This document shows, in pieces, positions 41,123 to 52,540 of a DNA stretch of 64,000 nt. The position numbers and the translations under genes were made by a program. Below the pieces are notes generated by a model. It was not told the DNA's origin. It was given only the letters and a program-made list of their open reading frames with translations, and made no database searches. Position 1 is the first letter of the stretch; each line of letters begins with the position of its first letter. Location of the stretch: NCBI RefSeq assembly GCF_009914755.1, contig NC_060940.1, one strand, 5' to 3'. Source of the stretch: the human T2T-CHM13v2.0 reference genome, Homo sapiens.

Positions 41123-41767
41123 CTACGGATTTATTCTTATTGCCCAGGCTTGAGTGCAATGGCGTGTTCTCAGCTTACTCAACCTCCGCCTCTTGGGTTT
41201 GGGTAATTGTTGTGCCTCGGCCTCCCTCTGCCTCTTGGGCTTGGGCGATTGTTCCACCTCATCCACCCTCCGCCTCTTGGGTTTCGGTGATTGTTCCACC
41301 TCATCCACCCTCCACCTCTTGGGTTTGGGTGGTTTTTCCACCTCGGCCTCCTGAGTAGCTAAGGGAGGAGTCTTGAGATTATCATCCACTGAGGGTGGAA
41401 GAGGAGAGGGTGGAAGCGGGACAAAGAGACATTCCTTCAGATTATCATCCACTGAGGGTGGAAGAGGAGAGGGTGGAAGCGGGACAAAGAGACATTCCTT
41501 CAGATTATCATCCACTGAGGGTGGAAGAGGAGAGGGTGGAAGAGGAGCAAGAGGACACTCCTTGATATTATCATCCACTGAGGGTGGAAGGGGAGTGAGC
41601 AGACACTCAGGAGGTGTCTTGAGGCTCAGGGAGTTATCAGTTATAGAATGTTGTTGAGTTGGAGGAGGTGGCTGGCGGCCCATCCTGTTTTTTAAAGTTT
41701 CAGCTGTGAGGTAGAGCCAGTAGGGCAATCCTGAAGAATGACGATGCTCCGCTGCCGCCATTCTGAC
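41123..41767 (-). CDS. NPIPB6: NPIP last coding exon ([17 protein letters not shown]...AIRINP*), 214 aa, with two coding VNTRs
   Basis: ccctacAG|GTC acceptor; NPIP signature [11 protein letters not shown] repeats; TAG at 41123-41125. Confidence 0.93.
41183..41350 (-). repeat. NPIPB6: Coding tandem repeat, 4 x 42 bp (14 aa, [14 protein letters not shown]), derived from Alu
   Basis: cctcttggg recurs at 41189, 41231, 41273 and 41315; unit and flanks align by eye to the Alu right arm. Confidence 0.9.
41372..41625 (-). repeat. NPIPB6: Coding VNTR with 63-bp period (21 aa, [21 protein letters not shown]), about 3.5-4 copies
   Basis: atcatccact recurs at 41381, 41444, 41507 and 41570. Confidence 0.92.
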
Positions 41768-51278: not shown

Positions 51279-51461
51279 ACAAAGGCAACTTGTGCAGAAG
51301 AGAATGTTAAATGTGTAACGTCTCAGAAACCCAATAATGATAATTATCAAATTATCCAATTTTTGTGGAGATGGGGTTTTGCCATGTTGGCCAGGGTGGT
51401 CTCGAACTCCTGCACCAAAGTCAGTCTCACGATGACGATAGACAGCCAGACTATTGATAAC
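51279..51461 (-). CDS. NPIPB6: NPIP exon VINSLAVYRH...ILFCTSCLC (183 nt), with an Alu-derived insert and a hydrophobic stretch
   Basis: ttattccAG|GTT; TGT|GTgagt; phase 0/0. Confidence 0.92.

Positions 51462-51699: not shown

Positions 51700-52540
<841 letters not shown>

What the first reader, a model, noticed from the sequence alone, without database searches (positions are those of the whole stretch)
51360..51412. Coding NPIP exon contains a 53-bp perfect copy of a neighbouring intronic Alu (local templated insertion)
Seen: 51360-51412 (tttttgtggagatggggttttgccatgttggccagggtggtctcgaactcctg) is identical, in the same orientation, to 52313-52365 inside the Alu 953 bp away. The match includes non-consensus bases (gtGgaga, ttttGccatg, ccagGgtgg); I did not see that combination in other Alus here. 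It encodes [17 protein letters not shown] in frame in mid-exon, and the exon is 18 codons longer than the NPIPA version I recall. There is no poly-A tail and no target-site duplication, and it is not at an exon edge. Inference: this is neither retrotransposition nor ordinary Alu exonisation. It looks like a repair or template-switch event that pasted local intron DNA into the ORF, just before the hydrophobic LIIIIIGFL segment.
Basis: partly seen in the sequence, partly recalled or inferred. Interest (0 to 1): 0.85.

Follow-up and report, generated by a model that had tools for sequence, protein, structure and literature searches.

The report
Alu fragment copied into NPIPB exon
About 52 bases of an Alu repeat from the neighbouring intron were copied into the middle of a coding exon in one branch of the ape NPIPB gene family, adding 18 amino acids; the insert is already published, but its local source is not.

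Summary
Window 51360-51412 equals 52313-52365 (53/53), and all 16 exact genome hits lie in NPIP duplicons on chr16. It is not a private NPIPB6 event. The same in-frame insert is in 8 of 28 NPIP copies in T2T-CHM13 (NPIPB6, B7, B8, B9, B10P, B15, LOC124907807, LOC124907808). It also appears in chimpanzee, bonobo and gorilla NPIPB proteins, so it predates the gorilla split. All 28 copies carry the donor Alu. NPIPB14P and two gorilla proteins keep the pre-insertion exon. The templated tract is 51-52 nt, not 53. The 53rd matching base (window 51412) is T in the other 7 human copies and is inferred to be G in apes, so the perfect 53-mer is a secondary coincidence of the CHM13 NPIPB6 copy. The copy replaced 5-6 nt (+46). 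An 8-bp tandem duplication 10 nt downstream (+8) restores the frame, giving +54 nt, or 18 codons. There is no poly-A tail, no flanking target-site duplication and no splice-edge involvement. A replication or repair template switch is therefore the best reading. The Alu-derived insert, with peptide support, is already published (PMC6924539). The local donor, the compensating duplication and the intermediate allele are, as far as my searches show, new details. Interest is moderate.

The parts
51279..51461 (-). Second coding exon of NPIPB6 (exon 4 of NM_001282524.2). It is 183 nt, or 61 codons: [61 protein letters not shown].
   Evidence: RefSeq rows given with the finding; exon order; translation; the homologous exon is 129 nt in NPIPA1, NPIPB2, B3, B1P and B14P.
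51360..51411 (-). Alu-templated tract, 52 nt (AGGAG...CACAAAAA in gene sense). The first A could equally be the last base of the exon's own GGA codon, so 51-52 nt were copied.
   Evidence: Identical to 52313-52364. Identical in all 8 insert-bearing copies. The junction-specific 36-mer occurs exactly 8 times in the genome.
51412..51412 (-). Junction base. It is C in gene sense here (Ala codon GCA) and T in the 7 other human copies (Val, GTA). It is inferred to be G in Pan and Gorilla (Gly codon), which is the pre-insertion exon's own base. It makes the match 53 nt only in this copy.
   Evidence: Human proteins show V in 12 of 14 and A in 2 of 14 (both CHM13 NPIPB6 isoforms). Pan (14 of 14) and Gorilla (1 of 1) have Gly at this position or lack the codon.
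51342..51357 (-). 8-bp tandem duplication 3' of the insert (gene sense GGATAATT then TGATAATT, 7 of 8 bases identical). It adds +8 nt and restores the frame shifted by the +46 of the Alu replacement.
   Evidence: Comparison with the NPIPB14P exon (...GGTGGAAGTCCTTGGATAATTATC...); coordinates. Either change alone breaks the reading frame and both together are in frame.
52116..52436 (-). Donor Alu in the upstream intron. It is sense to the gene and is present in all 28 NPIP duplicon copies examined.
   Evidence: Sequence read. Exact 53-mer in 15 paralogous Alus and 1-2 mismatches in 13 more.
52313..52364 (-). Donor tract within the Alu (left arm up to the start of the A-rich linker), 953 bp upstream of the insert in gene sense.

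Best explanation
A germline template-switch (replication slippage or break-repair) event struck one NPIPB lineage. It happened after that lineage split from the NPIPB14-type copy and before the gorilla-human split. The event copied 51-52 nt of the Alu lying about 950 bp upstream in the same intron-exon unit of the LCR16a duplicon. The copy is in direct orientation and lands in the middle of the second coding exon, where it replaces 5-6 nt (AGTCC).

An 8-bp tandem duplication lies 10 nt further on. It arose either in the same error-prone synthesis or soon afterwards as a compensating change. It brings the net gain to 54 nt, so the ORF continues with 18 extra residues (GSPW becomes [24 protein letters not shown]). 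The new stretch is hydrophilic and rich in Pro, Gly, His and Lys, and it sits directly before the hydrophobic segment.

The allele then spread by segmental duplication to 8 human copies (16p11.2 and 16q23). It is transcribed and, according to the literature, translated in testis.

Shown: the identity, its distribution among paralogs and species, polarity, frame arithmetic, and the absence of retrotransposition hallmarks.

Inferred: the enzymology, whether it was one event or two, and whether the donor was in cis.
For: - Identity and uniqueness: 53/53 identity here. The genome has 16 exact hits, all in NPIP. Only 2 unrelated Alus come within one mismatch, out of 827 hits at up to 3 mismatches.
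- Polarity: the donor Alu is in 28 of 28 duplicon copies and the insert in 8 of 28.
- Phylogeny: on a 3,059-column tree that excludes the insert columns, the 8 copies form one clade (support 100/100) with NPIPB14P as sister (100/99).
- Intermediate allele: NPIPB14P and gorilla P0072/P0073 carry the derived flanking residues but not the insert. Two gibbon proteins and all NPIPA, B2, B3-5, B11-13 and B1P copies lack it.
- Age: Pan (14 proteins) and Gorilla (P0067) carry it, including the KLDNL that the 8-bp duplication encodes.
- Reconstruction: slicing the tract and the duplication into the B14P exon reproduces the ape junction DFGGGVRD. Either change alone shifts the frame or gives stop codons.
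- No retrotransposition hallmarks: there is no poly-A tail, because the tract ends in the 5 A's of the Alu's internal linker. There is no flanking duplication, and the insert is mid-exon.
- Expression: the exon is coding in RefSeq models of NPIPB6, B7, B8, B9, B15 and two LOC genes. cDNA-derived human proteins carry it (P0059, P0065). PMC6924539 reports PeptideAtlas peptides for all three Alu regions of NPIPB6.
Against: - Junction microhomology is minimal: 1 nt (A) at the 5' junction and 0 at the 3' junction.
- The copy is direct and 953 bp away. The MMBIR-type templated insertions catalogued in PMC8421209 are inverted and lie within 100 bp.
- The same Alu sequence exists in every paralog, so a donor in trans cannot be excluded.
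- An RNA template (the gene's own pre-mRNA, same sense) cannot be excluded either.
- No copy shows the insert without the 8-bp duplication, so one event versus two cannot be decided.
- The ape evidence is protein models only. The junction base G is inferred from Gly codons, not read from DNA.
- Three chimpanzee 'LOW QUALITY PROTEIN' models (P0018, P0037, P0071) have the derived flanks but are 18 residues shorter (DFCGGSLIIIII). I take them for annotation artefacts but could not show it.
- Perfect identity of insert and donor after millions of years is not itself informative. At most about 1.4 differences are expected, from the branch lengths.
Confidence: 0.78

Rival explanations
1. A truncated Alu retrotransposed (or was captured at a break) from elsewhere in the genome into the exon. 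Its identity to the neighbouring Alu is chance or later gene conversion.
For: Alus are abundant. The 53-mer is only 3 changes from a very common variant (827 hits at up to 3 mismatches). One unrelated Alu (chr16:68988635) shares all three private bases.
Against: No unrelated Alu matches exactly, and only 2 do at one mismatch. The piece is an internal 52-nt fragment with no 3' end, no poly-A tail and no flanking duplication. Conversion of a 52-nt island embedded in non-homologous exon sequence is an extra assumption.
Confidence: 0.05
2. There were two separate mutations. First a frameshifting 46-nt net Alu-templated replacement occurred in a redundant, temporarily disabled paralog. Later an independent 8-bp duplication happened to restore the frame and was favoured.
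For: Each change alone breaks the frame. The family has many redundant copies, so a disabled intermediate could persist. The second repeat unit differs by one base from the first.
Against: No copy or ape protein shows one change without the other: 8 of 8 human copies and 15 of 15 complete ape proteins with the insert have both. The two changes are 10 nt apart, as expected from one bout of low-fidelity synthesis.
Confidence: 0.15
3. The insert is ancestral to NPIPB and was deleted or converted away in NPIPB14P, B2-5, B11-13 and NPIPA.
For: Interlocus gene conversion is frequent among NPIP paralogs (preprint 10.1101/2025.02.04.636496, passages).
Against: The insert clade is nested. Twenty of 28 human copies, two gibbon proteins and two gorilla B14-like proteins lack it. 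A loss in NPIPB14P would have to remove the Alu tract, restore AGTCC and remove the 8-bp duplication, all while keeping the derived neighbouring bases.
Confidence: 0.02
4. Ordinary Alu exonisation, that is, splice sites gained within an intronic Alu.
For: This is the commonest way for Alu sequence to become coding (background cited in PMC6924539).
Against: The tract lies at exon positions 50-102 of 183 with non-Alu exon sequence on both sides. It is Alu-sense. The exon's splice sites are the same as in the paralogs that lack the insert.
Confidence: 0.01

Closest known systems
[quoted passage not shown] 2019, PMC6924539). It is probably also the '51 bp / 17 amino acid' extension of exon 4 in bioRxiv 10.1101/116087 and PMC7419210.
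   Same: It is the same sequence feature, in the same subfamily. That paper reports it in the main isoform with PeptideAtlas support (passages read).
   Different: The passages I read do not name the donor or discuss a mechanism. The words 'template' and 'gene conversion' have 0 occurrences in the PMC6924539 main text. The 2017 preprint ascribes its exon-4 extension to alternative splicing. None of them mentions the 8-bp duplication, the NPIPB14P intermediate or the ape distribution.
Complex deletion-insertion variants made by serial replication slippage or serial template switching (for example the SPINK1 rearrangement in PMC12469571)
   Same: A small deletion at the site, a templated insertion of about 50-120 nt copied from the nearby intron, and a second small indel a few bases away.
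   Different: That variant is a recent loss-of-function allele. This one is in frame, fixed, multiplied by segmental duplication and translated. Microhomology here is 0-1 nt.
MMBIR-type templated insertions (MMB-TI; PMC8421209)
   Same: A short insertion copied from a nearby template, and a germline occurrence.
   Different: As catalogued there, those are inverted copies within 100 bp and mostly have 2 nt or more of microhomology. This one is direct, 953 bp away and has 0-1 nt.
Alu exonisation and Alu retrotransposition into exons
   Same: Alu sequence ends up in a coding region.
   Different: There are no Alu-borne splice sites, no poly-A tail and no target-site duplication. The piece is an internal sense fragment only.

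Membership tests
Alu retrotransposition insertion | 3' poly-A tail at one end of the insert | tested here: not met
   The tract ends in 5 A's, which are the start of the donor Alu's internal A-rich linker. The donor continues ATACAAAAATTTG while the exon continues TTGGATAATT.
Alu retrotransposition insertion | Target-site duplication flanking the insert | tested here: not met
   Comparison with the pre-insertion NPIPB14P exon shows a 5-6 nt deletion at the site. The only duplication (8 bp) lies wholly 3' of the insert and does not flank it.
Alu exonisation by splice-site gain | The Alu provides an exon edge (splice site), usually in antisense orientation | tested here: not met
   The tract lies at exon positions 50-102 of 183 and is Alu-sense. 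The splice junctions are shared with paralogs that lack the insert.
Templated insertion by template switching (serial replication slippage / MMBIR class) | Inserted bases identical to a nearby sequence that predates the insertion | tested here: met
   52 of 52 bases are identical to the Alu 953 bp away. That Alu is present in 28 of 28 paralogs, against the insert in 8 of 28.
Templated insertion by template switching (serial replication slippage / MMBIR class) | Microhomology at the switch points | tested here: inconclusive
   There is 1 nt (A) at the 5' junction and 0 nt at the 3' junction. A 2-nt TT overlap appears only if a slip between the two ACAAAAA repeats of the Alu linker is assumed.
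Templated insertion by template switching (serial replication slippage / MMBIR class) | Accompanying small deletions or duplications at or near the junctions | tested here: met
   A 5-6 nt deletion at the site and an 8-bp tandem duplication 10 nt downstream.
MMB-TI as defined in PMC8421209 | Inverted copy of a template within 100 bp | tested here: not met
   The copy is direct and the template is 953 bp away. The definition comes from passages read.
NPIP protein family (Pfam PF06409) | Match to the NPIP domain model | tested here: met
   PF06409.17 is precomputed for the NPIPB6 isoforms P0057 and P0058, for 37 of the 42 hits (5 carry no Pfam domain) and for all 35 hits. I ran no separate hmmscan.

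The most novel reading that the evidence does not exclude
One bout of error-prone, multi-switch DNA synthesis in an African-ape ancestor created, in a single step, an in-frame 18-residue coding segment from an intronic Alu. The segment sits immediately before the membrane-interacting segment of NPIP. This new loop changed the topology or targeting of the protein. It thereby helped found the testis-expressed NPIPB6-9/B15 subfamily, whose members B9 and B15 score most extreme in both pangenome selection tests, with B7 also extreme in one. If so, local template switching, not only retrotransposition and exonisation, would be a route by which Alus become selected protein sequence.
Probability: 0.15. 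Interest if true: 0.6.

Novelty: new member of a known kind. Interest (0 to 1): 0.35.

Why it matters
NPIP is one of the fastest-evolving ape gene families, and its function is unknown. Knowing exactly how and when its subfamilies acquired new coding sequence helps in three ways:
- It defines the subfamilies. The insert is a clean marker for the B6-10/B15 lineage, with NPIPB14 as the pre-insertion form.
- It dates them. The insert lineage is at least as old as the gorilla split, which qualifies a 'human-specific ~2.6 mya' reading of that clade.
- It offers a natural with/without pair for functional tests.

More generally, it is a fixed, duplicated and reportedly translated example of Alu sequence entering a protein by local templated copying rather than by retrotransposition or splice-site gain. 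It also shows two individually disabling changes that together stay in frame.

It is not a new class of mechanism, and the insert itself is already in print.

Tried and rejected
- Structure prediction. AlphaFold2 on NPIPB6 isoform P0058 with a 20-sequence alignment gave mean pLDDT 39 and pTM 0.17, with no residue at or above 70. It says nothing about the insert, and I ran no fold search.
- Hydropathy. It shows only that the 22 new or changed residues are hydrophilic (mean Kyte-Doolittle -1.37) and precede a hydrophobic stretch (19-residue maximum 1.8 near residue 87). Topology is not settled.
- Full-length protein search. I could not give the spliced NPIPB6 protein to the protein search. I therefore first searched with the 224-aa ORF of the last exon and then used a returned bonobo protein with the 'region' option. 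The third protein search (more outgroups) was not spent, so no orangutan or monkey protein covering this exon was examined. I rely on 2 gibbon proteins and on the statement in PMC7419210 that NPIPB is specific to African apes.
- Absolute dating. I gave only relative branch lengths from the tree, plus the chr18 copy as a rough yardstick. Gene conversion and Alu-rich sequence make a clock unreliable.
- Extending the match across a 9-nt gap in the Alu linker adds only 2 bases. I rejected it as not meaningful.
- Damert 2022 (PMC9132208) has nothing on this exon.
- Literature searches for a prior statement of the local donor or mechanism: NPIPB, NPIPA, LCR16a, Alu; NPIPB6, Alu-derived; NPIPB, templated, template switch, intronic Alu. 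None was found in the passages I read.

Full report
**Observation.** Window 51360-51412 and 52313-52365 are identical over 53 nt, on the same strand and 953 bp apart. The match does not extend by a single base on either side. Nothing else in the 64-kb window comes within 5 mismatches on either strand. NPIPB6 is on the minus strand. The exon 51279-51461 translates in frame as [61 protein letters not shown]. It is the second coding exon, exon 4 of NM_001282524.2. In gene sense the tract is Alu-sense. It corresponds to the end of the left Alu arm up to the first A's of the linker. The donor Alu spans about 52116-52436.

**Is it more than chance?** An exact search of the whole T2T-CHM13 genome gives 16 hits, all on chr16 and all in NPIP duplicons. 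Fifteen are the same intronic Alu in NPIPA1, A2, A5, A6, A7, A8, A9, NPIPB6, B7, B8 (just upstream of its annotated start), B9, B10P, B15, LOC124907808 and LOC124907807. One is exonic, and it is this window. With one mismatch there are 20 more:
- 7 are the exon copies of the other insert-bearing genes.
- 11 are the same Alu in further NPIP paralogs.
- 2 are unrelated Alus on chr11 and chr12.

With up to 3 mismatches there are 827 hits, of which only the first 100 were listed. The sequence is therefore three substitutions away from a very common Alu variant. Still, no unrelated Alu is identical. The tool warns that closed regions are not shown.

**Distribution among paralogs.** I collected the exon-to-Alu segment from 28 duplicon copies. 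These are 7 NPIPA genes, the two tandem copies in NPIPP1, 8 insert-bearing copies, and NPIPB2, B3, B4, B5, B11, B12, B13, B14P, B1P (chr18) plus two B13-like pseudogenes. All 28 have the donor Alu with at most 2 mismatches to the 53-mer. Only 8 have the insert: NPIPB6, B7, B8, B9, B10P, B15, LOC124907808 and LOC124907807. A 36-mer across the 3' junction occurs exactly 8 times in the genome, and nowhere else at up to 3 mismatches. RefSeq annotates the 183-nt exon as coding in at least one model of NPIPB6, B7, B8, B9, B15 and both LOC genes. Other models of NPIPB6, B9, B15 and both LOC genes skip the exon or carry it outside the CDS.

**Polarity and the pre-insertion allele.** A maximum-likelihood tree was built on the 3-kb flanks (3,059 of 3,305 columns). 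Columns filled in under 60% of rows were dropped, which removes the insert, present in 8 of 28 rows. The tree puts the 8 copies in one clade (100/100) with NPIPB14P as sister (100/99), inside NPIPB, with NPIPA as outgroup. NPIPB14P's exon reads ...GACTTTGGTGGAAGTCCTTGGATAATTATCATTATTG.... It has the derived downstream bases of the insert clade but not the insert.

Relative to it, the derived exon differs in two ways:
- AGTCC is replaced by 51 nt of Alu. Equivalently, AAGTCC is replaced by 52 nt, since the A is shared. The net change is +46.
- GGATAATT is followed by a near-copy, TGATAATT. The net change is +8.

The total is 129 to 183 nt, or 18 codons. Building the hypothetical intermediates in a script shows that the tract alone leaves the exon 175 nt long (frame +1). 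The duplication alone gives immediate stop codons. Both together give [30 protein letters not shown].

**Species distribution.** Protein searches restricted to named public sources returned 73 NPIP proteins, of which 29 carry the insert:
- 14 human
- 8 Pan troglodytes
- 6 Pan paniscus
- 1 Gorilla (P0067, [25 protein letters not shown])

A second gorilla model is truncated inside the insert (P0070). All of them include KLDNL, the product of the 8-bp duplication. Gorilla P0072 and P0073 show the pre-insertion form with derived flanks (DFGGNPWIIIIIGFLRRYTFTILFC). Two Nomascus proteins and all NPIPA-type proteins lack the insert. The insertion therefore predates the gorilla-human split.

This fits the tree. 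The stem of the insert clade (0.0095) plus its crown (about 0.004) is about as long as the terminal branch of the chr18 copy (0.013). PMC7419210 describes that copy as shared by human, chimpanzee and gorilla. The preprint 10.1101/2025.02.04.636496 calls the B6-10/B14/B15 start-site clade human-specific at about 2.6 mya. That figure may describe the crown expansion. As I read the passages, it does not fit the age of the B14 split implied here. I did not see their figure.

Three chimpanzee 'LOW QUALITY PROTEIN' models (P0018, P0037, P0071) have the derived flanks but are 18 residues shorter. I regard them as unreliable but could not prove it.

**The 53rd base.** In gene sense the junction reads GGTG-C-AGGAG in this window. 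It reads GGTG-T-AGGAG in the 7 other human copies. At the protein level:
- Human proteins have Val in 12 of 14.
- They have Ala in 2 of 14, both CHM13 NPIPB6 isoforms. A GRCh38-era NPIPB6 model, XP_005255799.1 (P0056), has Val.
- Pan has Gly in 13 of 14, with one bonobo model lacking the codon.
- Gorilla has Gly.

Gly requires G at that base, and G is the pre-insertion exon's own base (GGT GGA). The most parsimonious history is G, then T on the human stem, then C in this copy. Alternatively the C arose by conversion from the Alu. Either way the original copy was 51-52 nt, and the 'perfect 53-mer' is a secondary feature of this one copy in this assembly. The ape base is inferred from proteins, not read from DNA.

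**Mechanism.** Retrotransposition is disfavoured. The piece is an internal fragment without the Alu 3' end or a poly-A tail. No duplication flanks it, and it is identical to the resident Alu. Exonisation is excluded by position and orientation. Homology-driven conversion lacks any homology in the pre-insertion exon.

What remains is non-homologous templated copying. A nascent 3' end left the exon after GGTGG(A) and copied 51-52 nt of the upstream Alu. It returned 5-6 nt downstream of where it left, then slipped back 8 nt after 10 more bases. This is the pattern described as serial replication slippage or serial template switching for complex deletion-insertion variants (PMC12469571). It is related to MMBIR-type templated insertions, although those as catalogued are inverted and within 100 bp (PMC8421209).

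The weak points are these:
- Microhomology is 1 nt and 0 nt.
- A donor in a paralogous copy cannot be excluded.
- An RNA template cannot be excluded.
- One event cannot be distinguished from two.

Perfect identity of insert and donor is not evidence of youth. At most about 1.4 differences are expected over both sequences, from the branch lengths.

**Consequence for the protein.** GSPW becomes (G/V/A)[21 protein letters not shown]. This is a hydrophilic stretch of 22 residues (mean hydropathy -1.37, 3 Pro and 3 Gly) directly before the hydrophobic LIIIIIGFL...FLKTIF segment. AlphaFold2 gave no usable model.

The literature adds the following:
[quoted passage not shown] It says the Alu is part of the main isoform and that PeptideAtlas peptides validate all three Alu regions of NPIPB6, with expression in testis (passages).
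- The pangenome preprint reports testis-enriched expression rising at puberty for B6-9 and B15, and strong selection signals for B9 and B15 (passages).
- The '51 bp / 17 amino acid extension of exon 4' in 10.1101/116087 and PMC7419210 is probably the same feature, there ascribed to alternative splicing. I could not confirm the equivalence.

**Novelty and verdict.** The insert itself is known. In the text I could search and read (supplements closed), I did not find the following:
- the identification of the neighbouring duplicon Alu as donor
- the non-retrotranspositional mechanism
- the compensating 8-bp duplication
- NPIPB14P as the pre-insertion allele
- the presence in gorilla and Pan
- the secondary nature of the 53rd base

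The mechanism class is established. I rate it as a new, well-documented member of a known kind, of moderate interest.

Noticed in passing
L017 (chr16:15114000-15123500), NPIPP1 / PKD1P6-NPIPP1: The exon-plus-donor-Alu segment is present twice in tandem, 4,393 bp apart. Pan NPIPA5-like proteins P0025 and P0034 show this exon's peptide twice in a row, so a tandem exon duplication exists in some NPIPA-type copies.
   Followed up: partly
chr16:28747320-28747572 (NPIPB7 copy of this exon); protein P0012: A CLN3 RefSeq transcript (NM_001286109.2) has an exon overlapping NPIPB7's copy of the insert-bearing exon. A partial human protein combines a CLN3 domain (PF02487) with NPIP (PF06409) and carries the insert. 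This is a CLN3-NPIPB7 read-through.
   Followed up: no
L029 (chr16:68988635-68988687): An unrelated Alu shares all three private bases of the 53-mer but differs at two other positions. The combination is rare but not unique to LCR16a.
   Followed up: partly
window 41435-41497: Both curated NPIPB6 transcripts splice out 63 nt inside the last coding exon (an intron within the repeat-coding region).
   Followed up: no
proteins P0018, P0037, P0071 (Pan troglodytes, 'LOW QUALITY PROTEIN'): These models have the derived residues flanking the insert but read DFCGGSLIIIII, exactly 18 residues shorter. They are probably projection artefacts of an older assembly. If real, they would be Pan copies without the insert.
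   Followed up: partly
tree versus preprint 10.1101/2025.02.04.636496: The preprint dates the B6-10/B14/B15 clade as human-specific at about 2.6 mya. Yet the insert, which is younger than the B14 split on my tree, is in Pan and Gorilla proteins. A B14-like pre-insertion form is in gorilla too.
   Followed up: partly
protein P0007 (Pan paniscus): One bonobo model lacks one Gly at the junction (DFC-GVRD against DFCGGVRD), as a 3-nt slip in the GGAGGA repeat created by the insertion would give.
   Followed up: no
window 41123-41767 (last coding exon): PMC6924539 states that a repeat type in the last exon of NPIPB genes is also Alu-derived. I did not examine whether those pieces also match a resident Alu.
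   Followed up: no
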